A stretch of 64,000 nt of DNA from a virus. Lineage: Duplodnaviria > Caudoviricetes. Positions 1 to 42,136 of this stretch are shown piece by piece. The notes under the pieces were generated by a model. The model saw nothing but the letters and a program-made list of their open reading frames with translations. It was not told the DNA's origin and searched no databases. Each line of letters starts with the position of its first letter. Position 1 is the stretch's first letter. The position numbers and the translations under genes were made by a program. The stretch spans positions 1 through 64,000 of the IMG/VR virus record IMGVR_UViG_3300042470_001171; one strand, given 5' to 3'.

Positions 1-654
1 AACAATGTATCGGTGATCAATCCTGTCACCAATGCGGTGGTAGCGACCATCACCGTTGGCACTGCGCCTCTCGCCGTTGGCTATGCGCCGACCAGTGATC
101 GGATCTATGTGGCGAATCAAAACACCATCAATGTATCGGTGATCAATCCTGTCACCAATGCGGTGGTAGCGACCATCACCGTTGGCACTGCGCCTCTCGC
201 CGTTGGCTATGCGCCGACCAGTGATCGGATCTATGTGGCGAATCAAAACACCAACAATGTGTCGGTAATCAATCCTGTCACCAATGCGGTGGTAGCGACC
301 ATCGCGGTTGGCACTGCGCCTTACGGCGTTGCCTATGCGCCGACCAGTGATCGGATCTATGTGGCGAATCAAACCACCAACAATGTGTCGGTAATCAATC
401 CTGTCACCAATGCGGTGGTAGCGACCATCACCGTTGGCACTGCGCCTCTCGCCGTTGCCTATGCGCCGACCAGTGATCGGATCTATGTGGCGAATTTTAG
501 CGCCATCAATGTATCGGTGATCAATCCTGTCACCAATGCGGTGGTAGCAACCATCACCGTTGGCACTGCGCCTATCGCCGTTGGCTATGCGCCGACCAGT
601 GATCGGATCTATGTGGCGAATTTTAGCGCCAACAATGTGTCGGTAATCAATCCT
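1..654 (+). repeat. Near-identical 126-bp tandem repeats (about 5 copies) encoding YVTN blades
   Basis: aatcctgtcaccaatgcggtggtagc recurs at 126-bp spacing. Confidence 0.9.
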
Positions 655-3600
655 CGGGCAAATCTAGTTGATGCAGGCACCCGAGCCAGGGTGACCTTCG
701 CTCCAGGGTTGACCAATGCTGTTGCCGTAGGCGATGCCCTACAGTTCTGGGGAGCAGGCAACAAATTTGTTAGTGCCAGACTGCGATTAGCCAGTGCAAG
801 CTTTCCTAGCGCTGCTCGGCTATCAACGGACCTTGCTAATGGCTTTGCCTCGATTCGCAATACCAGCACTGCTACTTTTTATCGTAATTTAATACTTGCC
901 AATTTCGATGGCACCAGTTCGGTGACCGTCAATGGGACAAGCATTGCGCCCAACGCCGAAACTACTATTGGCTATTACAACATCACCACCCCTGTATTTT
1001 CGATCAATGTTACGGCTAGAGACCTAGATTTTTATTACAAAGCTGGCACTAGCTATCTGATTGCCACCAGCACCACTAACCAACTATTTCTTTACGCCTT
1101 TGATGCTACTACCGTATCAAGTGCCCCAGCGATCAAAGCGACTTTCACCACTAACGGGCTGAGCGCTTCTACACCTCGCCATCTAAGCTTTACAAAAGTA
1201 GGCTCTGATTTAGTCCTGCTGGTAGTGGGGGACACCATTAACCTGCTCTACCGCTTTGCTGACAACATTTTTGATGGCACCGGCACCATTACTATCAACG
1301 GCCAAACTATTGCCCACTCTAGCGGCTATGCCGTACCCACCAGCGCAGCATTGTTTTATTGGCTGCACAATACTACTGCTACCGACTCACTTTTAGGTGC
1401 GCTCTACCATAACACCGCAGCTAACCGCACTGTGATCGCTTTTGTGACCACCGCTGGCGTTAATGCCTACGAGCTGAACCTTGATGCTTTCAATGGCAGC
1501 GCTACAGTCAATGTCAAGGGTACTGATGTGATCCCCGTCAACAGGCAGTACACGTTGCCGGAGTACCTGTCCAGCTTCCAGATCCCTTCCTACACCGCCC
1601 CCCTAGCATTAAACTACAACAGTACTGATGCCGCCAATAGTTTCATCTCCGGCAATGCCAGTCGGATCGCTAGGCTAAATCAACTCAACCGCTTTAATAC
1701 AGTCATCGACCTACTGGCCCAAAGCTATACCACTGCCCCGGCCATCACCAAAACCTCTGCTAATGGTCCGCTGACTCTATCTACTGCCATCACCGCATTC
1801 CAGGCACTCTCTATTTTAGTGATTGGCGCTAGCTTGATCAGCTTGCGAAATAGCGATGGCACCACCGGCTACGCCAATGGCGAATATTACCCCTACGCCT
1901 ACACAGCTACCGACGACGCCGAGGGCACGATAAACGAAGGATTTACCTTGTCTGGGGCCGCGGCAGGTATTACCGGCACCTACCGCTTTACCATGTCCTC
2001 TGGCACTACCCTGACGCTAGGCAGCAAGGCCACCTATAACGACAACTTTACCGTCCCCTCCGGGGCTACCCTGGCGATCAGCCAGAACACCACCATTGGC
2101 AGCAATCTGATCCTCCAGGCGGGGGCGAATGTGGTGGCGGCTAACAATGTTGGTCCCTTCACCCTCACCATTCCCTACAGCGACCCTGGCCTAATCTACG
2201 ACCCTACCAAAATCACCATTGTTTCCCAGATCCGATTCACTGCACCTAATTTTGCCGATGGCTCCAGAGCCTATGCCGCTAGGGTGCAAAGCTTCACAAT
2301 AGCTAGCACTGCCATCAATACCACCACCGATGTAATCACCCTGGGCAACGATAGCCAGGGTAGACCTGCGGCCTTTGCCACCGCCGCCCCTTGGACCCAG
2401 GTACGCTTTAGCCTCAATAGTGGCGCAACTTTGCCCACAACCACCAGTAATGTCCTTAAGGATGGTGGCTTCTATTACTGGAGCGACGGTAAACTTTTCG
2501 CTAGCATCGCCAATATTCCTAGCACCCCGGTGGACTTTACCAGCCAGGGCAGTGGTGACTTTACTCTAGCCGCTGAGACTGAACTGTTCAATGTCGTGGT
2601 GTCTGGCGGCAGCGGCCTTGCCCAAAACTTAAGCCTGCCCAATGGTGCCCTGGTACGGCTTAAGGCCACCTACTGGGCGGAGTCTGGCGACATAGCGACC
2701 TCTGGCAGCTTCCTGGATACCCGAGACAGTCTGCTAGTGTGGAGTACCACTGGCGGTATTACCGTGGGTGCAGCTATCGGCCCAACCGTCTTAGAACCTA
2801 TCCACGAAGCCATCGTTGCCAGCACCCAGATCCAAAGCAATAAATATGGCGTACTAACCCCGGCCAATACGGGCTCTGGCCTATCTCAGTTCACCATTGC
2901 CCTAGAGGGTGTGGGCACTCTTCAGATCAATTCCAATGATACTGACGGCGTTGAGTTGATTCAGAATATTTTTCTTTGGTGGTGCTGGGTGCGCAGCACA
3001 GAAGCAGGCATTCGGCTGGCTAGCTTTGACACCCTAGAGGCGCTGTCGTTCACCAGTTACCAGGCGGGGCGGGTAGAGGTTGAAAATACCAACAGCACCA
3101 CACCCCTCAGCATTGCAGGCGGGAGCATTACGTTTCCCGGCAGCAGTACCGGGATTGCCGCCACCAGCTATGCGATCAACCTGAACGCTGATGTGTTTGG
3201 CACTGGCGCAACGACGGGCCTGACCAGTCCTGAGATCCGGCAAGCTGTAGGGCTGGCTAGCGCTAATGTGGACACGCAGCTATCGGCAATCAACAGCAAG
3301 ACCACGAACTTGCCAGCAGCCCCCGCAGCCGTTGGTGATATTCCCACCACCACGCAAATCTGGACTCATGCTACCAGGGCACTCACGGATAAGGACAGTT
3401 TCAACCTTGCCAGCTCCCAGACTTTTAGTACTACCGGATCAGTCGGTAGCGTAACTGGTGCTGTGGGCAGTGTCACCGGTGCCGTAGGTAGTGTCACCGG
3501 GGCGGTAACGGTAGGCATCATTAACAACAATGTGATCACGGCAAATGCTATTGCTACTGACGCATTTGACGCCGATGCCATTGCCGCTAGTGCAGTGACC

Positions 3601-3711
3601 GAGATCCAGGCAGGCCTAGCGACTCAGGCCAGCGTAGACACCAAGGCTAGTCAGGCTAGTGTGGATGCACTCAACGCCAAGGCCGACGACATTACGGCAT
3701 TGGTGCTATAG
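1..3711 (+). CDS. Large tail fibre/receptor-binding-like protein with N-terminal YVTN beta-propeller repeats (5' end probably outside the window)
   Basis: Frame open from base 1; about 5 copies of a 42-aa repeat (RIYVANxxxxNVSVINPVTNAVVATITVG); Thr/Ser/Ala-rich body; GAVGSVT repeats near C-terminus. Confidence 0.7.
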   Translation, partial: NNVSVINPVTNAVVATITVGTAPLAVGYAPTSDRIYVANQNTINVSVINPVTNAVVATITVGTAPLAVGYAPTSDRIYVANQNTNNVSVINPVTNAVVATIAVGTAPYGVAYAPTSDRIYVANQTTNNVSVINPVTNAVVATITVGTAPLAVAYAPTSDRIYVANFSAINVSVINPVTNAVVATITVGTAPIAVGYAPTSDRIYVANFSANNVSVINPRANLVDAGTRARVTFAPGLTNAVAVGDALQFWGAGNKFVSARLRLASASFPSAARLSTDLANGFASIRNTSTATFYRNLILANFDGTSSVTVNGTSIAPNAETTIGYYNITTPVFSINVTARDLDFYYKAGTSYLIATSTTNQLFLYAFDATTVSSAPAIKATFTTNGLSASTPRHLSFTKVGSDLVLLVVGDTINLLYRFADNIFDGTGTITINGQTIAHSSGYAVPTSAALFYWLHNTTATDSLLGALYHNTAANRTVIAFVTTAGVNAYELNLDAFNGSATVNVKGTDVIPVNRQYTLPEYLSSFQIPSYTAPLALNYNSTDAANSFISGNASRIARLNQLNRFNTVIDLLAQSYTTAPAITKTSANGPLTLSTAITAFQALSILVIGASLISLRNSDGTTGYANGEYYPYAYTATDDAEGTINEGFTLSGAAAGITGTYRFTMSSGTTLTLGSKATYNDNFTVPSGATLAISQNTTIGSNLILQAGANVVAANNVGPFTLTIPYSDPGLIYDPTKITIVSQIRFTAPNFADGSRAYAARVQSFTIASTAINTTTDVITLGNDSQGRPAAFATAAPWTQVRFSLNSGATLPTTTSNVLKDGGFYYWSDGKLFASIANIPSTPVDFTSQGSGDFTLAAETELFNVVVSGGSGLAQNLSLPNGALVRLKATYWAESGDIATSGSFLDTRDSLLVWSTTGGITVGAAIGPTVLEPIHEAIVASTQIQSNKYGVLTPANTGSGLSQFTIALEGVGTLQINSNDTDGVELIQNIFLWWCWVRSTEAGIRLASFDTLEALSFTSYQAGRVEVENTNSTTPLSIAGGSITFPGSSTGIAATSYAINLNADVFGTGATTGLTSPEIRQAVGLASANVDTQLSAINSKTTNLPAAPAAVGDIPTTTQIWTHATRALTDKDSFNLASSQTFSTTGSVGSVTGAVGSVTGAVGSVTGAVTVGIINNNVITANAIATDAFDADAIAASAVTEIQAGLATQASVDTKASQASVDALNAKADDITALVL

Positions 3712-6544: not shown

Positions 6545-6600
6545 GTGCTATACTCGGGGTAGCACATTGACAATTTGTGGTGACAGGTGACAGTGATGAA
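6545..6600 (+). promoter_or_regulatory. CRISPR leader A: extended -10 (TGTGCTATACT) and boxA-like GCACATTGACAA
   Basis: Same layout as leaders at 7649-7694, 18031-18082 and 23856-23907. Confidence 0.65.
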
Positions 6601-6740
6601 TCCCACTCCGGTGGGGGTTTCTCGACCACCGCCGCCTATATGGTGGACTTTGCCCCTCGCAAACACCTCCCCGCTTCGGTGGGGGTTTCTCGCTCTGACT
6701 GAGGCCTCAAAGCACACCCCACCACCGTGGGAGTCCTCAG
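6601..6740 (+). CRISPR. Mini-array A: 3 type I-E-like hairpin repeats, one 32-nt spacer and one short spacer
   Basis: CCCCAC-N4-GTGGGG plus GTTTCTCG handle; second repeat has TCGCAAACACCT extension. Confidence 0.8.
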
Positions 6741-7466: not shown

Positions 7467-7648
7467 AGAAAAACCCCCACCAGTGTGGGGACTCGCCAGA
7501 GTCAAGAAGCACCCCCACCAGTATGGGGCGAGGGAGAGAACTCTGAAACATCCCCACCACTGTGGGGAAACATGCAACTATAGTTTGGATCCACCCCCAC
7601 CAAAATGGGGCTAGGTATTGTCATCGACACACCCCCACCAGCGTGGGG
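7467..7648 (-). CRISPR. Array B: 5 degenerate hairpin repeats with very short spacers (period 38-43 nt)
   Basis: Hairpins at 7475, 7513, 7552, 7595, 7633, each with a GT/AT-starting 8-nt handle on the minus strand. Confidence 0.75.
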
Positions 7649-7694
7649 CCACCGTCACCAAATTTTCAAGGTTCCTGTCCCCTACTATAGCACA
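7649..7694 (-). promoter_or_regulatory. CRISPR leader B: TGTGCTATAGT -10 and boxA GAACCTTGAAAA (7663-7674)
   Basis: Conserved among four arrays. Confidence 0.7.
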
Positions 7695-7705: not shown

Positions 7706-8566
7706 TTAGCTAGCCGGTTCCAGTGAAACCACAACGCCAGCGGACTTGGTGGGAGTCAGCCTCAGCCAGACGCCGCCTAGGGACTTTGGCATGACGATCC
7801 GCTCCACCGCCCAGCCGTTGCCGCCCTGAAACTCCTCCTTGTAGGTGCCCGTCTGTACATGGTATCGGGGAGTTACCCGCACCTTGCCGGTTTCGATCAA
7901 CCGGTAGCAGGGGTGAGAAACGATGCTCCGCTCGTGATTGTGGCCATTGACGATCACATCAGCATCTGGTGCAATGCTGGCATACCGGCCACCGCCCATG
8001 GTGCCCTTGGTGACAATACCGCCCCAGGCCCCATGGTGGAAGAACAAGTTGCACCGCCGAACAGACTCGACGCCCTGACCCCGTTCCTTGTAGAACACAA
8101 ACCGAATCCAGCCCTGATAGCCCATGTGCTCGGTGATGGCCCCATGGCGGTCCCGCAGCTGCTGTACCACATTAGCCAGTGGGTCTATCTCCTGGTGGTT
8201 GATGATGGCTGTCTCATGGTTGCCGTTGCCCATCATCAGGATCTCCTGGCCGTAGGGTGCCAGAATGTCAGCGGACTCCTTGAATACCAAGTCGAAATAA
8301 TTGGCCCCCTGGTGCTCGGGGCGAATGCTGGCCTTGCTGCCGCGCCTGTCCCGCTTGCCCTGCATCAAGCACAGCACATCGCCAAAAAATAAGGCCCTGC
8401 CGTTGAGAGCCTTCATCTTTTCCAGGTGACTAAAAAATAGCTTGCGATCACATTTTGGGTTATCCAGGTGAATGTCGCTGGCCAGCAAAAAGTGATAGGC
8501 TTCCTCCCCGGTGTAGCGGATCCGGATTTCGAGGACTTCATCTGATAGTCGTCGCGTGGTTAGCAT
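7706..8566 (-). CDS. Calcineurin-like metallophosphoesterase
   Basis: SDIHLD, FGD, GNGNHE, HHG and GHNH motifs. Confidence 0.85.
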   Translation of the reverse strand: MLTTRRLSDEVLEIRIRYTGEEAYHFLLASDIHLDNPKCDRKLFFSHLEKMKALNGRALFFGDVLCLMQGKRDRRGSKASIRPEHQGANYFDLVFKESADILAPYGQEILMMGNGNHETAIINHQEIDPLANVVQQLRDRHGAITEHMGYQGWIRFVFYKERGQGVESVRRCNLFFHHGAWGGIVTKGTMGGGRYASIAPDADVIVNGHNHERSIVSHPCYRLIETGKVRVTPRYHVQTGTYKEEFQGGNGWAVERIVMPKSLGGVWLRLTPTKSAGVVVSLEPAS

Positions 8567-11848: not shown

Positions 11849-12448
11849 ATGCTGGCCAGACAACCCCTCGACTTCTATCCCACCCCCGGCCTGCTCACCT
11901 GGGCCTTGCTGGATAGCCATCGCTTTGTCCCCTGGCGCAACCAGGCCACCGTGCTGGAGCCCTGCAATGGCGAGGGTGCGATCAGCGATGTGCTGAAAGA
12001 ATCTGGCTTGTTCCGCCTGGTGGATACCGCCGACATTGATCCGGCCAAGACCAAGCCAGCAACCGCCATCGGTGCCACCAGCTTCACCATGGACGCCACC
12101 GATCCGCAAGCCTGGGCCCGGATGGCCCGCTACGACTGGGTGATCACGAACCCGCCCTACAACCAAGCCCCGGCGATCTTGCCATTGGCCTACGACAACT
12201 GCCGGGTGGGCATGGCCATGTTGTTGCGCCTCAGTTACCTGGAGCCCTGCAACAACCGGGCCCGCTGGCTGGCAGAACACCCGCCGGCCAAGCTGATCGT
12301 CTTTAACCCCCGGCCACGGTTCCGGGCGGATACAGTCGGCAGCGACTCGGTGACTAGCGCCTGGTTTATCTGGCACCGCTTCGGCAATAGCCAAGGGACT
12401 GAGCTTGAATTTTGTACTAACTGGAGAAACCATGGAACTGACAATTGA
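11849..12448 (+). CDS. Amino (N6-adenine/N4-cytosine) DNA methyltransferase
   Basis: DFYPTP, VLEPCNGEG (motif I), ITNPPY (motif IV). Confidence 0.8.
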   Translation: MLARQPLDFYPTPGLLTWALLDSHRFVPWRNQATVLEPCNGEGAISDVLKESGLFRLVDTADIDPAKTKPATAIGATSFTMDATDPQAWARMARYDWVITNPPYNQAPAILPLAYDNCRVGMAMLLRLSYLEPCNNRARWLAEHPPAKLIVFNPRPRFRADTVGSDSVTSAWFIWHRFGNSQGTELEFCTNWRNHGTDN

Positions 12449-15751: not shown

Positions 15752-16338
15752 TGCGCCAGCCCCCAGCAGCTCACCTCGTAGACTGGCTCTGGCTCCCAGT
15801 CTGGCTCTGGTGGTGGCCTGCTATCGGGTAGCTCCCAGCAGTCGGTTAAGCCAGCCGCTAGCGGTGCATCCAGGCTGAGGCAGTCTGGCCGTAGCAACGC
15901 ATTGAGCGCCTGCGGGATCTGGTCTATCGGGATCCGGGTAGCGCTGGCCATGGCGGCATGGCTGGCCCGCTCGTCATAGAGCTGGCGTAGCAGGGTGAAC
16001 CGGTCTGACCAGCTACGCGGTATCTTCAGCGTCACCGCCCGGTCCCGGCGATGGTGCAATATCTCACCCCGGATGTAGGGCACAGCGTAGCTACTGAAGG
16101 CGGTGCCCTTAGCTGGGTTGTAGCGGTCCACTGCCTTGATCAGGCCGATCACTCCCACCTGCACCAGATCCTCGAATACTTCCACGCCGTCCTGGGCATA
16201 GCGGCCAGCTATCTTCTCCACCAGCCCCAGGTTGATCAGGATCAGAGTGTCGCGGGTACGCTTATAGTCGGCGGCTTTTAGTTGGGTTCTAAGCCGCGCA
16301 AATAACTCTTGTGTTTGGATCCGTATTTCCCGGCTCAT
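15748..16338 (-). CDS. Phage RNA polymerase sigma factor, SigF/SigB-like, apparently lacking region 4
   Basis: NLGLVEKIA, EDLVQVGVIGLIKAVDRY, FSSYAVPYIRGEILH, KIPR, SLDAP; ends soon after region 3. Confidence 0.88.
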   Translation of the reverse strand: MSREIRIQTQELFARLRTQLKAADYKRTRDTLILINLGLVEKIAGRYAQDGVEVFEDLVQVGVIGLIKAVDRYNPAKGTAFSSYAVPYIRGEILHHRRDRAVTLKIPRSWSDRFTLLRQLYDERASHAAMASATRIPIDQIPQALNALLRPDCLSLDAPLAAGLTDCWELPDSRPPPEPDWEPEPVYEVSCWGLAQ

Positions 16339-16428
16339 GCCACCCCCACCAGCCGATATAGTCAGTGTTCCCCTATACTATACTGGGTAAACTGTCAAGC
16401 TGGATCCAGTTGTGGGCACCCTGAAGCC

Positions 16429-17316
16429 ATGGATACTATTACCGTCACCTCCCAGCCCTCCCAGACTGCTAGCCTTGCCCTGCAGCAGGCCAGTAGCGAC
16501 GACCACCTGATCGAGATGTGGATCAGTCGTTCCCGAAGTGCTGGCACCCAGAAAGCCTACCGTCGAGCGATCACCCGGCTACGGGCTTGGCTAGCCCACC
16601 ACGACTGCCACCAGCTAGCCATGGTCACAGCGGCCATGCTGATCGACTATGAGGCCACGTTCCCGAAGCGCTGGAGCGATGCTACCTGCAACCTGCACAA
16701 GGCCGCCATCAAGTCGCTGTGGAAGTTTGGCAGCTCCATTCGTTACCTGCACTTTAATGTCCCCCATGCTGTCTACCGGCTAGGCAAGCCCAGGCCAGTC
16801 ATGGCGGAGCGGATCCTAACCGAAGGCGAAATGAGGCGGGCCATTGCCAAGGAACCTAGCCTGGAGGCCCAGCTATTCCTGCGCTTCCTATTTGCTACTG
16901 GCGTTCGGGCCAGCGAGGCGCTAGCGGTGCGGTGGTGTGACCTGCACCTACGCGGCCAGCGGGTGTTCCTGGCTATCCACCACGGCAAGGGCGACAAGGC
17001 CCGCGAGATCGGATGCTCCAAGGCTGTCTACGACGCGCTGATCCAGGCCCGGCCAGAGGATGCGCTGGACCAGGACGAAATATTCCCGGTGCCCTACCTG
17101 ATCGCTTGGCAATGGGTGAAGGTGGCCATGGCCAGGATCGGCAAGCCCCAGGCTAGCCCCCACTGGCTGCGCCATGCCCATGCTGTCACCGCAGCCGCCC
17201 ATGGCTCCGACTGGTGGAGCATTGCACAGCAATTAGGCCACGCCCGGCCGTCGTTCACAATGGACCGCTACGCCCATTTTAATGGGGTGTTTAGCTCGGA
17301 CTATGTGGATATTTAA
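16429..17316 (+). CDS. Tyrosine recombinase (XerC/D-like)
   Basis: TGVRASE, GKGDK, HWLRH, LGHA...RY catalytic set. Confidence 0.92.
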   Translation: MDTITVTSQPSQTASLALQQASSDDHLIEMWISRSRSAGTQKAYRRAITRLRAWLAHHDCHQLAMVTAAMLIDYEATFPKRWSDATCNLHKAAIKSLWKFGSSIRYLHFNVPHAVYRLGKPRPVMAERILTEGEMRRAIAKEPSLEAQLFLRFLFATGVRASEALAVRWCDLHLRGQRVFLAIHHGKGDKAREIGCSKAVYDALIQARPEDALDQDEIFPVPYLIAWQWVKVAMARIGKPQASPHWLRHAHAVTAAAHGSDWWSIAQQLGHARPSFTMDRYAHFNGVFSSDYVDI

Positions 17317-17350
17317 GCGCCTAAAACGCACAAAGCCCGGCAAAGCCAGG

Positions 17351-18030
17351 GCGGAAACTCCCACGATGGTGGGGTATAGGATAGGTACGGGCTGGAGGAA
17401 CGCCCACTAGAGTGGGGAATGCCAAGCCCAGTTTCACGCTGGAGCGATAGGGGCAAGACTCACCCCCACCAAAGTGGGGAGGTGTTTGCGAGGTGACGGG
17501 TCAGGCTAGCAAACTGGCCCTAACCGAGAAACCCCCACCGGAGTGGGGAGGTGTTTGCGAGTTAAGGGTGCTGGCGCGGTGCCTGACACTGACGAAAGGG
17601 AAAAACCCCCACCGAAGCGGGGAGGTGTTTGCGAATGCCGAGTCAATCGTGGTGGGCCTAACAGCTACCCCGGAGAAACCCCCACCGAAGCGGGGAGGTG
17701 TTTGCGAGCAGTGGGATCGGCACATTCAACGTCGGAGCGGTGGTCGATCAACCCCCACCGGAGTGGGGAAGTGTTTACCAGGCTGTTGTAAACGGGTTTC
17801 CGGCACATAGAAAAACCCCCACGAGGGTGGGGATACTGTGTTTCAGCCACCTCAAGGGCCAGGGGCGTGATAGGATAAACCCCCACCGAAGTGGGGAGGT
17901 GTTTGCGCTTGGGCACCGTGGCGCAATACGGCTTTTTCTCGGAGAAACCCCCACCAAAGCGGGGAGGTGTTTGCGAGAGGGTGCCCTATGGGCTGTCACT
18001 ATCGGCAGAAAAACCCCCACCGGAGTGGGT
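17351..18030 (-). CRISPR. Array C: 11 hairpin repeats; consensus TCGCAAACACCTCCCCACTTCGGTGGGGGTTTCTC(G/C); mostly 28-38 nt spacers
   Basis: Repeat anchors at 17462, 17531, 17605, 17678, 17751, 17815, 17879, 17947, 18013, plus degenerate hairpins near 17359 and 17402; unique spacers. Confidence 0.92.
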
Positions 18031-18082
18031 CCACCGTCACCTACCACCAAATTTTCAAAGTTCTTGCCCCCACTATAGCACA
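18031..18082 (-). promoter_or_regulatory. CRISPR leader C: TGTGCTATAGT -10, boxA-like GAACTTTGAAAA, GGTGACGGTGG
   Basis: Conserved among four arrays. Confidence 0.75.
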
Positions 18083-18150
18083 AAGCTGGCCAGTTGGTGC
18101 AGGCAAAGCAAACCCCCGGCGAGGGCCAGGGGTGGCAGGCAGGCTAGGGG

Positions 18151-18390
18151 CTAGATCCCCAGGCCAGAATCCAGCCAAGTGTCCGTGCATCGCTCCCAGC
18201 CAAGCCCATCCAGCAGGGCGAGGATGCGGGCGGTGGTGAAGTGCTGGTAGTTAACCTCGTCGGGAGCCAACAGGCTGGCCTCGCTAGCAGCCCGCCAGAG
18301 GGCGTCTAGGGCCATCTGGACAAGGCCCATGCGGGTGGCAGAGATATAAATGTCCCGCTGATCTCTTTGGTAGGGGTTGTCTCGTTTCAT
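18151..18390 (-). CDS. Small cassette protein
   Basis: CCACTTAC...GAGGA leader. Confidence 0.6.
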   Translation of the reverse strand: MKRDNPYQRDQRDIYISATRMGLVQMALDALWRAASEASLLAPDEVNYQHFTTARILALLDGLGWERCTDTWLDSGLGI

Positions 18391-19429: not shown

Positions 19430-19876
19430 CTAGGCCTCCTCCCGGGCAACAGCCCAGATCGGGCCAGACGGGACACAATTACGCCGTCCTAGGTATAGCT
19501 GGAATTTAGGCCGGGCCAGCGCCTTGGCAATGGTGCGGATCTGCTGCAAGTCACCCCGCAGGGTAACGGTAGAACTGAAGTCGCTCAGGTAGTGCCGGGT
19601 GGTGATGGCATTGCGGCCTGGGGCCCCGTCATAGGTGATAGCATCGCGGATGGTGTGGAAGTCCTCCAACACTCCGCCATGGCTTGTCTCGCCTATCTCC
19701 ACCTGCAGCCCGTCCAGTTCCGGCGCTGACTGGCCTCGACGTATCCCCAGGGCAGCACACAACATGCCGCGGATCGCCGACTCAGTTGGGGCATCCTCCG
19801 TCAGTCGTTGCTGCAGCCGTGGCCCGGTGCCATAGGCAGCCATGGGGCCTGCTAGCTTCAGGACTAGCCTAGGCAT
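19430..19876 (-). CDS. cas5e: Type I-E Cas5 (short, 148 aa)
   Basis: LKLAGPMAAYG...R.T...PTESAIRGMLCAALG...DFHT...RHYLSD...LYLGRRNCVPS. Confidence 0.9.
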   Translation of the reverse strand: MPRLVLKLAGPMAAYGTGPRLQQRLTEDAPTESAIRGMLCAALGIRRGQSAPELDGLQVEIGETSHGGVLEDFHTIRDAITYDGAPGRNAITTRHYLSDFSSTVTLRGDLQQIRTIAKALARPKFQLYLGRRNCVPSGPIWAVAREEA

Positions 19877-21122
19877 AGGCCACCTCCTTGCCAGCACCCA
19901 TGGCTACTTGCAGGGCCCCATCAATGGCCCCGTCCAGGGGCTGGCCGAACCAGCCTGGCTGGGTAGTCACTTCAGCTTTGTACAGCGACTTGTCGCCGTA
20001 GATGACGTTTAGCCGGTCCTGGTACTGGCGCAGCGCATCAGCGGCCTGGTGCGGGATACCCTGGGCTAGGAAGTCGTCGTCGGTGGTGCAGCTATTGATT
20101 GACACATGGAATGCCGGTGCCAAGGTGTAAGGCTGAGCCGCTGTCACCCGCACCTGCACATAGTCTGGCCGAGTTAGATGGGCATGGCTGCGCACATAGC
20201 CAGTCGGCAGGGTAGTGCAGAATGCTGTCAGGAATCCCCGGGCAAACTGCTGGGCCAGCTCGGGGTCGCCGATCAAGCGGGCCAGCTCAGTGACATTCAG
20301 GTTGGCATAGCGGTAGTAGACGGGCGAGATGATGGGCAGCTCCCCCAGGTGGCCAGCGCCAGACTTAGATTCCTCATCCAAGGGTTCAATGTCATCTTCG
20401 GCGGTGAAAAAGTCCGGCTCACCAATCACTTGGCCCATGCCCTTGACATTGGTGATACCAAAGGAATTAACCGAGATCGCATCCGCCACTTGGGTGCAGC
20501 CATCGACGCTGGCCTCAGTCAGGCTAGCCATCATCCGGCCAAACAGTGCGACATCCCCTGGTACTTGCTGGCCTAGCTTGCCCAGAGCTTTGCGGATGCC
20601 CTGCAAATCCCTGGCGCTAGGTTTTTCAGGCGCTGGAGCCTTCTTGGGGTTTATATCCAAAGCCTCCTGGTAACGCTGGGCCCGCTCCAGCATATCTCCC
20701 AGTAGCACCGAATGATCGGCGGCCAGAGCGGCAATGGTGTCCAGCTCATGCTCAGACAGGAATAACAGGTTGCCGCTATCCTCCAGCATGGCCGGGATCA
20801 GGTTGTCGTCTTTGAGGTTGAACAAGCCCAACAAGAACCGAGCCACCATCAAGTTATCAGCGTCACCGCCCAAAAAGCCAGTGCAGCAGCAGGATAGGCG
20901 ACTGGCCAGGGCGACGTCATGGCGACGGCTGCGGAAAGCCAAGGCCTTGCGGTCAACGGCCATCCATTCCCCATAGTGTTGCCGGGCGGCCCGTTTCTGG
21001 GACTGGCTGGAGAGCCGGGCCCGCCAGCTACCACCGTATTGGATCTTTTTGGGTGCCCCGGACTTGTCCCGGTTGGCATTGCTGGGCGGTAAAGCGTGGA
21101 TCAGGTGCACTTCGATAAACAT
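19869..21122 (-). CDS. cas7e: Type I-E Cas7 (Cse4/CasC)
   Basis: PSNANRDKSGAPK...GG...RARLSSQSQKR; DVALFGRM; DFFTAEDD; GAGHLG...YYRYA. Confidence 0.95.
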   Translation of the reverse strand: MFIEVHLIHALPPSNANRDKSGAPKKIQYGGSWRARLSSQSQKRAARQHYGEWMAVDRKALAFRSRRHDVALASRLSCCCTGFLGGDADNLMVARFLLGLFNLKDDNLIPAMLEDSGNLLFLSEHELDTIAALAADHSVLLGDMLERAQRYQEALDINPKKAPAPEKPSARDLQGIRKALGKLGQQVPGDVALFGRMMASLTEASVDGCTQVADAISVNSFGITNVKGMGQVIGEPDFFTAEDDIEPLDEESKSGAGHLGELPIISPVYYRYANLNVTELARLIGDPELAQQFARGFLTAFCTTLPTGYVRSHAHLTRPDYVQVRVTAAQPYTLAPAFHVSINSCTTDDDFLAQGIPHQAADALRQYQDRLNVIYGDKSLYKAEVTTQPGWFGQPLDGAIDGALQVAMGAGKEVAYA

Positions 21123-21150: not shown

Positions 21151-21288
21151 GTGGCCACCCCCACCGCCGTGGGGCCTTTTTGGTTGTCGATCCACACCCA
21201 CCGGAGTAGGTTGTATGACGTGTCTGTGCAGGAGACACCCCCACCGGAGTGGGGCCACTGCTCAGCCCTGAGACACCCCCACCAATGC
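21151..21288 (-). CRISPR. Array E: 3 hairpins plus a partial one in the cas6-cas7 junction
   Basis: Hairpins at 21159, 21196, 21239 and a half repeat at 21277 inside the cas6 3' end. Confidence 0.75.
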
Positions 21289-21876
21289 TGGCGCGGGCTC
21301 AGGCGTAGTCACCGCCGCCACCGGCAGCAACGACAGCAGGCCGCAGCCGTACGCCTTTTCCCGGCCAATGCCGTTGACCATGGCATCAGCTAGCCGCTGG
21401 CTATGGGTCACCGTCAGATACCCGTCCACTACCGATACCTCAATGGGGAATGAACGAGTGTAATGCTCACGGCGCACATGATCATGGTGTTTTTGCACTC
21501 GCACCTGGCGCACCTCGAAGGTAGCACCTAGCCGATCCTCCCTGGCGGCCAGCCACTCAGCGGCAGGCACCGGATAGCGCCGACACCGGTCATCCCGGTT
21601 ACTTTGGGCCACAGAGTTGAGCCCCAGGCGGAAGCGGTAACGCTCCCCAACATTAAGCAGGTTATGCCTAAACTCCAGCTTCACCTGGGCCTCATAGGCT
21701 TTAGGCCACTTGGGCTTTTCTACCGACTGCACCAGGATGGATCCGCCGTCAACCCGGAACAATGCCCCGACTTGGCTGCGGGGGTCTGGGCCCAGATCGT
21801 CAGGAAAGCCCGCCATCACATAGCGGTGCAGGCTTCCATGGCCATCTGGCCGGGCAAAACGAGAAAGGTATAGCAT
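21262..21876 (-). CDS. cas6e: Type I-E Cas6 (Cse3/CasE)
   Basis: YLSR, HRYVMAGFP, LFRVD, LVQS...P.W, YRFRL, C-terminal GIGREKAYGCGLL G-loop. Confidence 0.93.
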   Translation of the reverse strand: MLYLSRFARPDGHGSLHRYVMAGFPDDLGPDPRSQVGALFRVDGGSILVQSVEKPKWPKAYEAQVKLEFRHNLLNVGERYRFRLGLNSVAQSNRDDRCRRYPVPAAEWLAAREDRLGATFEVRQVRVQKHHDHVRREHYTRSFPIEVSVVDGYLTVTHSQRLADAMVNGIGREKAYGCGLLSLLPVAAVTTPEPAPALVGVSQG

Positions 21877-22520
21877 TATCGTGATCCTCCGTAAACGGTT
21901 CTGTAATTGGCTTGCCGCAGCCAGTCCACCGCAGCAGTCTGGCTGGACAAAGTAAATGTGTTGCTATCGAACCGCACCACTTGCAGCTCGACGCCCAGGC
22001 GGCCCTGGACTAGCTGGGCACCCCGGGCCTGACGTTGGCCACCTACGATCAGGCGGTGCAGAAAAGCTTGGTCTTCGGCGGCAATAGGGCCATCCTGAAA
22101 ACTGCGCTTGATGCGCCCCACATGATCGCAAATGTCTGCCTTGGCCCGCTCGAAGCTGATCGGCACCCCAGCAATGCAATAAGTTGGTCGGGGCACCGCT
22201 GGCACTATCTCCCAGGTGAAGCTGGACAGCTCCCCGCTATCGCGGTGGGTCCGTAAGCGTTCCACCGTGGACTTAGCCGGTAGGCCAGTCTCATGGAATA
22301 GCACCAGGTGCTTTTTGCTGGGCCGAGTCCAGCGTCGTTGGTAACTGTTGCCCTGGCCGATGGCCTCCCGCACCTGGTCGGCAGGCTTTACCTCCACCAG
22401 CGTGTCGTACTGAGCACCGTCGACGACTATGTCAATGCGGTCCTGACCTACGGGCACCTCAGTGCGGCCACCATGGCGGACGGCCCAAGCGTCCCGAATA
22501 ATGTCATGGGGGAAGTTCAT
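21876..22520 (-). CDS. PD-(D/E)xK nuclease-fold protein coupled to cas6
   Basis: EV...RIDIVV...LVEVK...AIGQ..SY pattern; TAATG overlap with cas6 start. Confidence 0.7.
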   Translation of the reverse strand: MNFPHDIIRDAWAVRHGGRTEVPVGQDRIDIVVDGAQYDTLVEVKPADQVREAIGQGNSYQRRWTRPSKKHLVLFHETGLPAKSTVERLRTHRDSGELSSFTWEIVPAVPRPTYCIAGVPISFERAKADICDHVGRIKRSFQDGPIAAEDQAFLHRLIVGGQRQARGAQLVQGRLGVELQVVRFDSNTFTLSSQTAAVDWLRQANYRTVYGGSR

Positions 22521-22590
22521 CTGTGGTTTTCCAACCCAATTAATGGCTTATAGTTGGATGGTAACACTTTTTTGTTATCTGGAGAACTAC

Positions 22591-23409
22591 ATGACCGACA
22601 TCTTTACCTACCCCTGCATTGCCACCCCCCAGGGCACCGCCAGCCTAGCCGATCTGCTGGCCAGCCCTGAAGCCTACACCGACATCAGCGAACCCCACCT
22701 CACCCGCCAGGCGTTCCTACGCCTGCTGCTAGCCATGGCCAGTGTCACCATGAAAAACCAGCCCCTATCAGGCGATATGCCGCTGTGGAACAACTGGGGC
22801 GAGCCAGGCTTCCTGCAGGTAACAGGCCTGCCTGAGGCCTCCACCCGTAGCCCCCAAGCGATCATGGATTTGATGGATGGCTCCGGCCCCGCCCTGGTGC
22901 CCCGCAACTTCCTAGCCGCCCCAACCGAGGCCGACCTGATCAAGGCGCTGATCACCGCCTACTTCTGCGATAGGCCCGGGCTCAAGGCTCAGGTGAAGGG
23001 CCTGCCAGTATCTGGGCCCAAGCCTAGCCACATGGGCCAGCTAGTGGCCTGGAAGTGGGGCGATACCCTAGCAGACTTCCTGGAGCTCAACGGCGTGGCA
23101 ACGTCCTCCTGGGTGCCCTGGTGGAAGCGCCCCATCGACTACGGCGAGACGCTGGACGCTGACAACCCCGATCTGGTGCAATACCTCATGTGGCCATGGC
23201 GGCGACTCCAGGCATTCCCTGGCGGCATTGTCGTGGCCGCTGGCGTGAAATGCACCGTAGCCGATCCCTGGGCAATTGCCCGGGCCAGCCTGCGCCACCT
23301 GAGCAAAGGGCTAGCCGAGTTCGAGTTGACCGGGCCTGCCAGGGTGTCGGGCATGGTGCTGAACCAGGCTAGCCCGCTGGCGTGGAAGGAATGGGTGATA
23401 GCTAGGTAG
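22591..23409 (+). CDS. cas8e: Shortened type I-E large subunit Cas8e/Cse1-like (272 aa), divergent from cas6/7/5
   Basis: SLADLL...AFLRLLLA, FLQV, GDTLADFLELN, WPWRRL motifs of the Cse1 N-terminal domain; GGAG RBS. Confidence 0.65.
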   Translation: MTDIFTYPCIATPQGTASLADLLASPEAYTDISEPHLTRQAFLRLLLAMASVTMKNQPLSGDMPLWNNWGEPGFLQVTGLPEASTRSPQAIMDLMDGSGPALVPRNFLAAPTEADLIKALITAYFCDRPGLKAQVKGLPVSGPKPSHMGQLVAWKWGDTLADFLELNGVATSSWVPWWKRPIDYGETLDADNPDLVQYLMWPWRRLQAFPGGIVVAAGVKCTVADPWAIARASLRHLSKGLAEFELTGPARVSGMVLNQASPLAWKEWVIAR

Positions 23410-23855: not shown

Positions 23856-23907
23856 GTGCTATAGTGTTGGCAGGAACCTTGACAACTTGGTGGTAGGTGA
23901 CGGTGGA
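23856..23907 (+). promoter_or_regulatory. CRISPR leader F: TGTGCTATAGT -10, boxA-like GAACCTTGACAA, GGTGACGGTGG
   Basis: Conserved among four arrays. Confidence 0.75.
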
Positions 23908-24492
23908 TCCCACTTCGGTGGGGGTTTTTCGTACCCCCGACAGGGCCTTAACGGCGCGTGGCAAACAGCTCCCCACTTTGGTGGGGGTTTTTCTTTTTTC
24001 TAGCCACGATCAACGGGCTGAGCGACTCGCAAACACCGCCCCACTTCGGTGGGGGTTTCTCCCGTGTGACAGCGCATTCCTTTTCATCCCCGCCTTGGTG
24101 GGGGTGTGTCGATTTGCGGTTAACTCATGCACCCCACCCCCGTGGGAGTCTGTCTGCCATTGCCCGGGCCAGCCAGCTAGCCCCACCACTGTGGGGGTGG
24201 GTCAAGCGGATCCCGTCAGCCCCACAGCGTGGGGGTTTCTCCTGTTACCGGTCATGCCCACCATCGTGGGAGTCTGTCCCTACAAAAATCAGCCCATTCC
24301 GGTGGGAGTCTGTCACCCTGGCTCAGCTACCTAGCCCCACCAGCGTGGGGGTGTCTCGGCTGATTTTGAGGCGGGCGTGGCGGTATCGGTCACCTAGCCC
24401 CACCAGCGTGGGGGTGTCTCGCCTTCGCCTCACGATCCCCACCAGCGTGGGAGTGGATCTTGACAGCCCTTAGCCCACCCCGTGGGAGTCTA
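23908..24492 (+). CRISPR. Array F: about 13 hairpin repeats; two tagged long spacers, then mostly short spacers
   Basis: CCCCAC-N3/4-GTGGG(G/A)-GT recurring at irregular ~36-68 nt spacing. Confidence 0.85.
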
Positions 24493-27954: not shown

Positions 27955-28358
27955 TCGTCCATCCCTCCAGCGTAGGGGTTTTCAGGCTTGGGGGTGGGAT
28001 CGGTAGCCCGACGGCGGCGCTCCATGACTACACTGCCAGCCACCATGGCGGCAACAGCGGCCAGCACCGCAATGAACAGCCAGGGCGGGCCAGCGGGCTC
28101 AGCCACCGCAGCAACCGGCTCAGCCACGGGTATAGGCTCAGTGGTTGCCAGCGGCGTAGCTACAGGCACCGCCTGGCCATGCTGGGTGAGGCCACGGATG
28201 TCGCAAACACCCGCAGCGTCTAGCTCAAACCATGCCTCTCTGGGACTGAGGCCAGCCTCCAGCGGGTATTGCTGATCGCCCCATAGCAGGTAGTTGGTGT
28301 CCCGGGGGGCGGGGCTCGATACCATGTCCTGGCACCGAGGCTTTGTAAGTGGATCCAT
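27951..28358 (-). CDS. Membrane protein (C-terminal TM helix followed by RRRR)
   Basis: Operon context; start uncertain. Confidence 0.5.
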   Translation of the reverse strand: MDPLTKPRCQDMVSSPAPRDTNYLLWGDQQYPLEAGLSPREAWFELDAAGVCDIRGLTQHGQAVPVATPLATTEPIPVAEPVAAVAEPAGPPWLFIAVLAAVAAMVAGSVVMERRRRATDPTPKPENPYAGGMDE

Positions 28359-41753: not shown

Positions 41754-42136
41754 AATGTTTGTGCCTCACTTGTTAGCTGAATTAACGGTGGGGTAGCCGT
41801 TCCATCGTTTGTTGACGCAAGCGGTGGAACGCATCTACTATTTTACCCCATTTTTGATTAAAAGTCTTGGCCAGGGCAGGCCCCAAAGCAAAACCCCCAG
41901 CTAGGCCGGGGGTCTGCGGGGGAGTGTGGTTAGCACCAGGCTTCAAGCCCTTGGCTTCGACTTCCGTAGGCTAGCGACTGACGGGGAGGACAGCATCTCC
42001 GCCTAACCCCACTCCCCCCCCCACCACTCCCCCACCCCAGCCCGCTGGCCACCTGGCGGGCTTTGTCGTGGCTGGCCAGGGCTGGCCCCAAAGCAAAACC
42101 CCCAGCTAGGCCGGGGGTCTGCGGGGGAGGTGGTGG

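What the first reader, a model, noticed from the sequence alone, without database searches (positions are those of the whole stretch)
17462..18030. Long-spacer crRNAs carry a conserved 3' tag (UCGCAAACAC) absent from micro-spacer units
Seen: in arrays A, C and the first two units of F, spacers of 27-38 nt are followed by TCGCAAACACCT (variants TGGCAAACAGCT, TGGTAAACACTT) before the stem, making a ~36-nt repeat instead of the ~29-nt I-E norm. These crRNAs start with GTT(T) handles and often have a C(UUCG)G loop; short units lack the tag and mostly have GTG/GTC handles. Spacer length is also unusually variable for I-E. A few long spacers are untagged. Inference: the tag sorts crRNAs into functional classes, for example by recruiting the nuclease or capping a longer Cas7 filament.
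Basis: partly seen in the sequence, partly recalled or inferred. Interest (0 to 1): 0.8.

Follow-up and report, generated by a model that had tools for sequence, protein, structure and literature searches.

The report
Extra-long repeat in phage CRISPR arrays
The 'tag' is real, but it is the front third of an unusually long (36-37 letter) CRISPR repeat that a lake phage uses for its fast-changing guides, so it marks how those guides arose and has not been shown to sort them.

Summary
Observation confirmed. The window is part of a 72.8-kb lake phage that encodes Cas6e, Cas7e and Cas5e. The array at 17359-18030 lies on the minus strand behind a promoter/boxA leader. Ten hairpins in the window are preceded by (C)TCGCAAACACCT or a close variant. 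All ten follow 27-38-nt spacers and GTT handles.

Over the phage and its relatives, 74 tagged and 95 untagged distinct units differ sharply in length, handle and loop. The tag stays constant while spacers turn over: 59 distinct spacers in 9 homologous arrays, and other spacers between the same repeats in lake DNA runs. So it is repeat, not spacer. The repeat is 13 + 16 + 7 = 36 nt (+1 variable), against 29 nt in every cellular I-E array examined.

No cellular array carrying the tag turned up in 26 genome and 110 metagenome hits. Every locus with two or more tags belongs to this phage lineage.

The 5' handle and loop covary with class just as strongly. An extended helix was tested and rejected. 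No protospacers were found.

One point is unexplained: the leader-proximal hairpin never carries the tag. An earlier follow-up in this scan (e1-6031557) described the same composite arrays on a related phage.

The parts
18031..18090 (-). Leader cassette of the array: extended -10 TGCTATAGT (18072-18080), boxA-like GAACTTTGAAAA (18052-18063), GGTGACGGTGG (18031-18041) abutting the first hairpin
   Evidence: Read. Four co-oriented copies of the cassette lie in the window, with 0 expected by chance. A terminator-like hairpin of the upstream gene lies at 18112-18133. The -10 is my own reading; the consensus promoter scan found none. The boxA motif is named in PMC8461337.
18015..18030 (-). Leader-proximal hairpin (ACCCAC-TCCG-GTGGGG), no tag, followed by handle GTTTTTCT
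   Evidence: The same tagless first hairpin is seen in all related arrays.
17941..17977 (-). Tagged repeat 1 (13-nt tag + hairpin 17949-17964 + 8-nt handle)
17873..17909 (-). Tagged repeat 2 (tag with 1 mismatch; hairpin 17881-17896)
17809..17832 (-). Untagged repeat after a 40-nt spacer (hairpin 17817-17832). The upstream sequence looks like a decayed tag with indels.
   Evidence: The same unit occurs in L088.
17745..17781 (-). Tagged repeat, variant TGGTAAACACTT (hairpin 17753-17768)
17672..17708 (-). Tagged repeat (hairpin 17680-17695)
17599..17635 (-). Tagged repeat (hairpin 17607-17622)
17525..17561 (-). Tagged repeat (hairpin 17533-17548). 17561 is the C at -13, where population joints fall.
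17456..17492 (-). Last tagged repeat (hairpin 17464-17479), handle GTGAGTCT
17351..17455 (-). Conserved trailer: an untagged 38-nt spacer, hairpin 17402-17417, a 19-nt micro-spacer, hairpin 17359-17374 and its handle
   Evidence: It is shared by the homologous arrays of relatives.
6656..6692 (+). Tagged repeat in the leader-led array 6601-6732
23958..24062 (+). Two tagged repeats (variants TGGCAAACAGCT and TCGCAAACACCG) at the start of the leader-led array 23908-24487. The rest of that array is untagged short units.
21262..21876 (-). cas6e (204 aa), the presumed enzyme that cuts at the 3' base of each hairpin
   Evidence: PF08798 E 1.6e-31; TIGR01907 E 9.5e-14
19869..21122 (-). cas7e (417 aa)
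   Evidence: PF09344 E 1.3e-67; TIGR01869
19430..19897 (-). Short cas5e (155 aa)
   Evidence: PF09704 E 2.7e-29; TIGR01868 E 6e-31
16309..17316 (+). Tyrosine recombinase (phage integrase), convergent with the array trailer
   Evidence: PF00589 and PF02899

Best explanation
The 'tag' is the 5' third of a 36-37-nt CRISPR repeat: C-TCGCAA-ACACCT, then the 16-nt Cas6e hairpin CCCCAC-TYCG-GTGGGG, then GTTTYTC plus one variable base. This repeat is used only in the spacer-bearing part of this phage lineage's arrays.

Shown:
- The block is constant while the sequence on its 5' side changes between related phages and between lake populations.
- Tag, loop type and handle type travel together as one repeat family.
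- Such units sit at the leader end of composite arrays whose trailer ends are conserved short units.

Inferred from known type I-E biology: the phage Cas6e cuts at the 3' base of each hairpin. The mature crRNA is then an 8-nt GUUUYUCN handle, a 26-40-nt guide, the 12-13-nt tag and the hairpin. That gives a 28-29-nt 3' handle instead of 21 nt.

The tag goes with long spacers because both are products of spacer addition, which copies the whole repeat. The micro-spacer units are fixed hairpin units, individually diverged, that were never made that way.

Inferred role of the extra bases:
- The invariant outer part (CTCGCAA) is the repeat end that the still unidentified integration machinery needs.
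- In the RNA, the CA-rich, unpaired stretch acts as a passive linker. It adds one to two Cas7 lengths and absorbs the non-quantised spacer lengths.

On this reading the tag records a guide's origin and is not a signal that sorts guides.
For: - Constant tag, varying spacers. Tagged arrays occur in 5 IMG/VR contigs and 13 metagenome loci of the same lineage. This holds even where Cas6e is only 67-75% identical.
- Spacer turnover. Nine homologous integrase-side arrays hold 59 distinct spacers. The leader-proximal spacer differs in 9 of 9 arrays, and the trailer unit is shared by 6 of 9.
- Population data. Lake DNA runs X1 and X2 contain contigs that join the window's repeats across 29-39 other letters. 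The joints fall at 17561, the C at -13.
- Repeat logo from 60 distinct tagged repeats. Positions 2-7 and 12 are near-invariant, partly by selection of the set. Loop positions vary in 9-25 of 60.
- One repeat family. GTT handle 71 of 74 against 30 of 95; TYYG loops 63 of 74 against 13 of 95.
- Cellular I-E arrays met in the same searches have a 5-nt 5' flank and a modal period of 61 in 14 of 14. Of 110 metagenome loci, 71 are regular 60-62 arrays.
- Tagged inter-hairpin lengths are 47-61, peaking at 55-58, against 45 in canonical arrays. One Cas7 binds 6 nt and extended crRNAs recruit extra Cas7 (Luo 2016, PMC5009729, abstract and section 16 read).
- Cas6e, Cas7e and Cas5e are encoded 1.4 kb away.
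- RNA run X8 holds a 374-nt contig identical to 17679-18052.
Against: - The leader-proximal hairpin never has the tag, yet diversity is greatest at the leader end. Standard Cas1-Cas2 duplication of the first repeat would not create tagged units.
- No Cas1 was found in the phage record or in 4 related records, all 31-79% complete by CheckV, one of them with terminal repeats. How spacers are added is unknown.
- The tag core is better conserved than the hairpin loop. That could mean selection for an RNA-level function, not passive copying.
- No protospacer was found, so guide boundaries rest on comparison only.
- Transcription is not proven, because DNA carry-over in the RNA library was not controlled.
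- Processing by Cas6e and retention of the tag in mature crRNA are inferred, not observed.
Confidence: 0.6

Rival explanations
1. First reader's model. The tag is an active RNA signal in the 3' handle that marks a functional class of crRNA, for example by binding the PD-(D/E)xK-like nuclease or the truncated Cas8, or by capping a longer Cas7 filament. Only tagged guides would then cut DNA, and untagged mini-guides would only bind or be processed.
For: - The core TCGCAA and C12 are nearly invariant while the loop and the inner tag positions vary.
- The tag is kept across relatives with 67% Cas6e identity.
- Tagged guides are the variable, externally directed ones. Some untagged guides match the phage's own genes over 16-27 nt, which suggests a division of labour.
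- The nuclease gene is confined to the same narrow lineage: 25 of 25 homologues are at least 77% identical.
Against: - No test could separate the tag from the handle and loop, which covary with it.
- Nuclease and tag occur in one lineage only, so their co-occurrence is a single evolutionary event.
- In E. coli Cascade, mismatches in an extended guide region impair activity (Luo 2016 abstract). A never-paired 12-nt stretch on the Cas7 backbone is therefore not obviously helpful.
- Conservation can also come from copying at each spacer addition.
Confidence: 0.15
2. The 5' handle is the discriminator, not the tag. GUUUYUC-handle crRNAs load the phage's own short Cas5e. The short GUG/GUC/GUA-handle units serve another purpose: Cas6e processing sites in mRNAs, crRNA-like regulators, or decoys for a host I-E Cascade in the manner of RNA anti-CRISPRs. 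The tag simply rides along with the first class.
For: - Handle class separates the two groups as well as the tag does: 71 of 74 against 30 of 95.
- Cellular I-E handles in the same searches are mostly GTG-type: 12 of 14, with two GTA-type.
- Racrs are repeat mimics that trap Cas6 and Cas7 (PMC10651486, passages read).
- Mini-arrays encoding regulatory crRNA-like RNAs are described (10.1101/2023.03.03.530964, abstract seen in the listing).
- Short units are conserved between relatives.
Against: - The host and its CRISPR type are unknown.
- Racrs characterised so far lack a 5' handle, whereas these units keep G1, T2, T6 and C7.
- Not exclusive of the best explanation.
Confidence: 0.15
3. Cassette-like insertion. 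The unit that is added is [spacer + tag], inserted at the tagless first hairpin, and only hairpin + handle is duplicated. Alternatively, spacers arrive by recombination with an undiscovered donor array that has the full repeat and its own Cas1-Cas2.
For: It explains why the first hairpin is never tagged although the leader end is the most diverse. Arrays are mosaics with shared internal spacers and duplicated units.
Against: - There is no known mechanism that would append a constant 13-nt end to new spacers.
- No donor array was found. The 26 genome hits are chance hits or ordinary arrays. All metagenome loci with two or more tags are phage-lineage arrays.
Confidence: 0.05

Closest known systems
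Canonical type I-E repeat and crRNA (E. coli, T. thermophilus; Cas6e substrate)
   Same: A 6-bp GC stem with a 4-nt loop, then a 7-8-nt handle starting G/A-T. A T stands just before the stem. Cas6e, Cas7e and Cas5e genes lie next to the arrays.
   Different: - 13 nt lie 5' of the stem instead of 5, so the repeat is 36-37 nt instead of 29.
- Spacers are 26-40 nt (SD 3.4) instead of a fixed 32-33.
- Loops differ between repeats of one array.
- The first repeat is truncated.
- No cas1, cas2 or cas3 was seen (cas3 not searched by me).
Engineered E. coli Cascade with extended spacers (Luo et al. 2016, PMC5009729)
   Same: A longer stretch between handle and hairpin. +6 nt adds one Cas7 and +12 nt adds two (section 16 read). 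Tagged units are about +10 to +13 nt relative to the canonical 45.
   Different: In that work the extra bases are guide and must pair with the target (abstract). Here they are a constant sequence. This phage also lacks a recognisable Cas11, according to earlier notes that I did not test.
RNA anti-CRISPRs / solitary repeat units of phages (Camara-Wilpert et al. 2023, PMC10651486)
   Same: Phage-borne repeat-like hairpins behind promoters. This fits the short units more than the tagged ones.
   Different: Tagged units carry long, turning-over spacers and full handles, and the phage has its own cas genes. Racrs are not associated with cas genes and lack the 5' handle (passages read).
Mini-arrays encoding crRNA-like regulatory RNAs (Shmakov et al. 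2023 preprint; 2024 preprint on phage crlRNAs)
   Same: Conserved, partially self-matching guides next to cas genes. Here these are untagged guides with 16-27-nt self matches.
   Different: The tagged guides show no self match: of the tagged spacers among 106 tested, one had an 18-nt partial hit. Only the abstracts of these papers were seen, in the search listings.
Composite long-and-short-guide arrays of a related freshwater phage (earlier scan note e1-6031557)
   Same: One leader drives fast-changing normal-length guides followed by conserved 13-19-nt mini-guides. My own comparison gives the same picture.
   Different: As shown to me, that note does not deal with the 12-13-nt repeat extension.

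Membership tests
Type I-E CRISPR repeat (Cas6e substrate) | GC-rich 6-7-bp stem with a 4-nt loop near the 3' end of the repeat | tested here: met
   The six stem pairs are standard in 57-60 of 60 distinct tagged repeats. A-U changes to G-U in 11.
Type I-E CRISPR repeat (Cas6e substrate) | 7-8-nt 5' handle directly after the stem | tested here: met
   G1, T2, T6 and C7 are invariant in 73 tagged and 62 short units. Cellular arrays have GTGAACC, GTGATCC or GTGTTTC. Cleavage itself was not observed.
Type I-E CRISPR repeat (Cas6e substrate) | Repeat of 28-29 nt with about 5 nt before the stem | tested here: not met
   13 conserved nt precede the stem, against 5 nt in 14 of 14 cellular arrays.
Type I-E CRISPR repeat (Cas6e substrate) | Uniform 32-33-nt spacers (period 61) | tested here: not met
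   Tagged spacers are 26-40 nt, mean 33.3, SD 3.4. The modal period is 61 in cellular arrays.
Type I-E CRISPR-Cas locus | cas6e, cas7e and cas5e adjacent | tested here: met
Type I-E CRISPR-Cas locus | cas1-cas2 adaptation module | tested here: not met
   PF01867 gave 0 of 1 (own record) and 0 of 4 (relatives). The records are 31-79% complete. cas2 was not searched.
Bona fide CRISPR array (any type) | Spacer turnover with leader-end polarity between related genomes | tested here: met
   59 distinct spacers in 9 arrays. First spacers are all different and the trailer is shared. Alternative spacers occur in lake DNA runs.
Bona fide CRISPR array (any type) | Spacers match foreign protospacers | tested here: inconclusive
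   No match in INPHARED phages, PLSDB plasmids, 3 exact-word scans of IMG/VR, or the related phage genomes. The lake virome was not searchable with mismatches.
RNA anti-CRISPR (Racr / solitary repeat unit) | Repeat mimic without a functional guide or 5' handle, not linked to cas genes | tested here: not met
   Tagged units have 26-40-nt variable guides and full handles, and lie near cas genes. The definition is from PMC10651486.
crRNA-like regulatory RNA (crlRNA) | Partial complementarity to the element's own genes or promoters | tested here: not met
   Tagged spacers have no self hit beyond one 18-nt word. This is met only by some untagged guides.

The most novel reading that the evidence does not exclude
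The 12-13-nt block is a dedicated licensing module in the crRNA 3' handle of a Cas3-less phage mini-Cascade. Only guides that carry it assemble the longer complex that engages the stand-alone nuclease and cuts DNA. The untagged mini-guides made from the same transcripts form binding-only or processing-only complexes. One Cas6e/Cas7/Cas5 set would thus run an immune arm and a regulatory arm, told apart by a repeat-encoded RNA tag.
Probability: 0.12. Interest if true: 0.75.

Novelty: new variant of a known kind. Interest (0 to 1): 0.4.

Why it matters
Type I-E repeats are among the most uniform in CRISPR biology: 29 nt, with 32-33-nt spacers. This is a I-E-type hairpin and handle embedded in a 36-37-nt repeat with heterogeneous spacers. 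It sits on a phage that has no Cas1, Cas2 or Cas3 of its own, yet its arrays clearly turn over in nature.

That raises two testable questions:
- Who adds the spacers, and why is the first repeat truncated?
- Does a longer, constant 3' handle change Cascade architecture?

If the extension is only a linker or integrase site, it is a modest curiosity within an already interesting phage mini-Cascade. If it gates nuclease recruitment, it would be a new way of partitioning guides.

Tried and rejected
1. Extended helix between tag (AAAC) and handle (GUUU).
- Pair 9-30 breaks to G-G in 12 of 60 with no compensating change. Pair 5-34 is standard in 2 of 60.
- Only 3 of 60 minimum-energy folds pair the tag with the handle.
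- The whole array folds no better than shuffles, z -0.77.
- Rejected.

2. Micro-spacers as decayed tags of spacerless 36-nt repeats. The idea came from the 37-39-nt period.
- Mean alignment score to the tag is -1.54 against a null of -1.81 +/- 0.21, p 0.09. Only 2 of 57 are clear derivatives.
- Rejected as a general rule.

3. Six-nt quantisation of lengths.
- Untagged segments cluster at 21-23, 27-29, 32-33 and 44-48. Tagged segments show no mod-6 peak, with counts 19, 17, 10, 7, 18, 17.
- Suggestive only for the short class. Not used as evidence.

4. Host array with the tag.
- Genome contigs gave 26 hits, none with the tag as repeat.
- Of the 110 metagenome loci, 71 are ordinary arrays, 23 have fewer than 4 hairpins, 3 are ordinary arrays with odd periods and 13 belong to the phage lineage.
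- The pattern demanded exact TCGCAA-N6-CCCCRC-N4-GYGGGGGT, so diverged versions would be missed.

5. Host identification.
- 3831 spacers from the cellular arrays in hand gave no hit longer than 19 nt on the phages. The longer rows in that output are phage loci matching their own or relatives' arrays.
- The nearest cultured-phage protein hit is cyanophage PSS2 at 25% identity.
- The atlas gave only generic Cas7e clusters.

6. Protospacers. None found.

7. Rfam. No family at gathering score, and only chance-level hits at E of 0.065 or more.

8. Hairpin + GTTTYTC elsewhere in IMG/VR. Outside the lineage there are only single terminator-like hairpins.

9. Distant relatives.
- Nuclease and Cas6e word-index searches found only the narrow lineage.
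- The exhaustive Cas6e search gave next-nearest relatives at 44% identity or less. Their DNA context could not be read (see below).
- Four viral loci reached with alignment A1 had no arrays.

10. RNA evidence. The contigs of RNA runs X8 and X23 cover parts of the array. No silent control stretch could be laid, so transcription is not shown. Parts without cover mean nothing.

11. One literature search for extended I-E repeats found nothing relevant. This is not proof that it is not in print. Supplementary files of papers were not consulted.
Full report
**What is there**

The window is the first 64 kb of a 72,813-base IMG/VR virus record, 79% complete by CheckV. It has phage structural genes and a tyrosine integrase at 16309-17316. 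It also encodes type I-E Cas5e (19430-19897), Cas7e (19869-21122) and Cas6e (21262-21876), all on the minus strand.

The motif CCCCAC-N4-GYGGGG occurs at about 38 sites, counted as 76 matches on both strands, where 1.67 matches are expected. Every unit is oriented: the hairpin is followed by GTNNNTC.

Four clusters start behind a shared leader cassette: TGCTATA(G/C)T, then a boxA-like GAAC(C/T)TTGA(A/C)AA, then GGTGACGGTGG. There are four copies where none is expected by chance, and each is co-oriented with its array. The array of the finding therefore runs on the minus strand, from the leader at 18090-18031 down to the last hairpin at 17374-17359. It abuts the 3' end of the integrase gene.

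Ten hairpins in the window are preceded by TCGCAAACACCT with 0-3 mismatches:
- seven in this array,
- one at 6669,
- two at 23971 and 24039.

The ten crRNAs ending in a tag have spacers of 27-38 nt. All ten have GTT handles and TTCG, TCCG or TTTG loops. Among the 27 other inter-hairpin segments of the phage, 4 have GTT handles and 2 have such loops.

Adding the relatives gives 74 tagged and 95 untagged distinct segments:
- GTT handles: 71 of 74 against 30 of 95.
- TYYG loops: 63 of 74 against 13 of 95.
- Median length: 55 against 27 nt.

These units come from related phages, so the p-values overstate independence. The separation is nonetheless plain.

The block is really 13 nt, with C at -13 in 58 of 73. 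The repeat is thus 13 + 16 + 7 = 36 nt, plus an eighth handle base that is C, G or T but almost never A (31, 22, 19 and 1 of 73).

**The tag is repeat, not spacer**

- Exact tag-plus-hairpin matches occur in 5 further IMG/VR contigs and in 13 metagenome loci. These loci carry the same leader cassette, the same integrase-side trailer or the same cas genes.
- In all of them the tag is constant. Its main variants among 73 units are TCGCAAACACCT 38, TCGCAAAGCACA 8, TCGCAACCACCT 7 and CTCGCAAGCACA 5. The sequence on its 5' side differs between loci.
- Nine homologous integrase-side arrays hold 59 distinct spacers. The leader-proximal spacer is different in all nine. Internal spacers are occasionally shared, and the trailer units are shared. 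This is the polarity of a living CRISPR array.
- Contigs from two lake DNA runs join the window's repeats across 29-39 other letters. The joints fall exactly at 17561, the C at -13.
- The tag is kept in relatives whose Cas6e is only 67-75% identical.

**It is not a host repeat, as far as could be searched**

The pattern TCGCAA-N6-CCCCRC-N4-GYGGGGGT hit 26 stretches among one genome for each of 185,579 species. Fourteen lie in ordinary arrays with a 5-nt conserved 5' flank and a modal period of 61, where one spacer happens to contain TCGCAA. The other twelve have only 1-3 such hairpins each.

Of the 110 metagenome stretches:
- 71 are ordinary 60-62-period arrays,
- 23 have fewer than four hairpins,
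- 3 are ordinary arrays with slightly odd periods,
- 13 are this phage lineage.

Every locus with two or more tags belongs to the lineage. In IMG/VR, hairpin + GTTTYTC outside the lineage occurs only as single terminator-like hairpins. Diverged versions of the tag would escape these exact patterns.

**How it compares with canonical I-E**

The stem, the loop size, the T before the stem and the handle are I-E-like. Four things are not:
- eight extra bases at the 5' end of the repeat,
- spacers of 26-40 nt (mean 33.3, SD 3.4),
- loops that differ between repeats of one array,
- a truncated first repeat.

Inter-hairpin distance is 45 nt in canonical arrays and 55-58 nt at the peak of the tagged class. 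In E. coli Cascade each Cas7 covers 6 nt, and +6 or +12 nt of crRNA recruits one or two extra Cas7 (PMC5009729, section 16). The tagged crRNAs would then be expected to carry about two more Cas7 than a canonical complex, and the 21-23-nt class about four fewer. This is inference. The same paper's abstract reports that mismatches in the extended region impair activity. That argues against a never-paired tag simply being extra guide.

**Mechanism**

My best reading has three parts.
- The tag is part of the repeat family that is copied whenever a spacer is added.
- Its outer invariant half (CTCGCAA) serves as the repeat end at the DNA level.
- In the RNA, the CA-rich stretch is an unpaired linker in an extended 3' handle.

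Tests that bear on structure were negative. No helix forms between tag and handle, and the array shows no unusual folding.

It cannot be excluded, but nothing singles out the tag over the covarying handle and loop. The nuclease and the tag share a single narrow lineage, so their co-occurrence counts as only one event.

There is a real functional asymmetry. Tagged guides have no match in the phage or its relatives: one 18-nt word is the only hit outside arrays for a tagged spacer among the 106 spacers tested. Some untagged guides match the phage's own genes:
- an 18-of-19 PAM-proximal match of an array-F guide inside the Cas8-like ORF,
- a 27-nt match of a G001/G003 guide in the gene next to its array.

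This fits 'acquired immune guides versus hard-wired regulatory guides'. It does not show that the tag causes the difference.

**What remains unexplained**

The first hairpin of every array lacks the tag, yet the leader end is where arrays differ most. No Cas1 is found in five records of the lineage, all 31-79% complete by CheckV, one of them with terminal repeats. Either spacers enter at the first full repeat and leader-side units are lost by recombination, or the added unit is spacer-plus-tag, or a donor array exists that I did not find.

The nearest cultured-phage hit is a cyanophage at 25% identity. The host may therefore be a cyanobacterium, but this is a hint only. From recall, not from any call: cyanobacterial type I-D and III arrays have 36-37-nt repeats and variable spacers. 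That would fit a repeat adapted to a host adaptation module.

**Limits**

- No protospacers were found.
- RNA-library contigs cover the array, including a 374-nt identical contig, but DNA carry-over was not controlled.

**Verdict**

The feature is a new variant of a known kind: a I-E-type repeat with a constant 8-nt 5' extension in a phage-borne, Cas1-less, turning-over array. Interest is moderate on its own. It would be higher only if the extension proves to gate nuclease recruitment.

Noticed in passing
window 24156-24180 (+) and 23272-23290 (+): An untagged 25-nt guide of array F matches 18 of 19 PAM-proximal positions inside the Cas8-like ORF 22462-23409. The match includes a 16-nt exact word that 0 of 300 shuffles reach, and the flanking 'PAM' is TGG. 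A G002 guide hits the same word. This could be a crRNA-like autoregulator of the cas operon.
   Followed up: partly
L009 2942-3400 (+), matching window 7889-7915, G001 22093-22119 and G003 12352-12378: In relatives, the fourth leader-led array (the homologue of window 7475-7648) carries conserved untagged long guides. One matches 27 nt, with 1-2 mismatches, in the gene next to the array. In the window this array has only short units.
   Followed up: partly
window 6562-6573, 7663-7674 (-), 18052-18063 (-), 23874-23885: Each array leader contains a boxA-like element. The copy at 7663-7674 is identical to the boxA reported for cyanobacterial 16S-23S spacers (PMC8461337). This suggests Nus-type antitermination of the arrays and a cyanobacterial host.
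   Followed up: partly
window 28201-28211 (+): An exact 11-nt copy of the tag (TCGCAAACACC) lies inside an ORF, with no hairpin after it. About 0.03 such matches are expected by chance. Its meaning is unknown.
   Followed up: no
L065 7946-12766; L032: A 167-kb metagenome contig and a Nitrospirota MAG carry ordinary 29-nt I-E arrays whose handle is GTGTTTC. Among the cellular arrays seen, this is the handle nearest to the phage's GTNNNTC handles. None of their spacers matches the phage.
   Followed up: partly
window 17200-18200, runs X1, X2, X8, X23: The array region is highly heterogeneous in lake populations. There are many contigs with other spacers, skips of 103-378 nt and one back-join. 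Two metatranscriptome runs hold parts of it.
   Followed up: partly
window 1-654: Five copies of a 126-nt tandem repeat (94% matches) lie at the start of a 1236-aa ORF, 1-3711, probably a tail fibre.
   Followed up: no
window 41895-41911 and 42100-42116: Two identical 17-nt hairpins with identical flanks lie 205 nt apart. They are unrelated to the Cas6e-type units.
   Followed up: no
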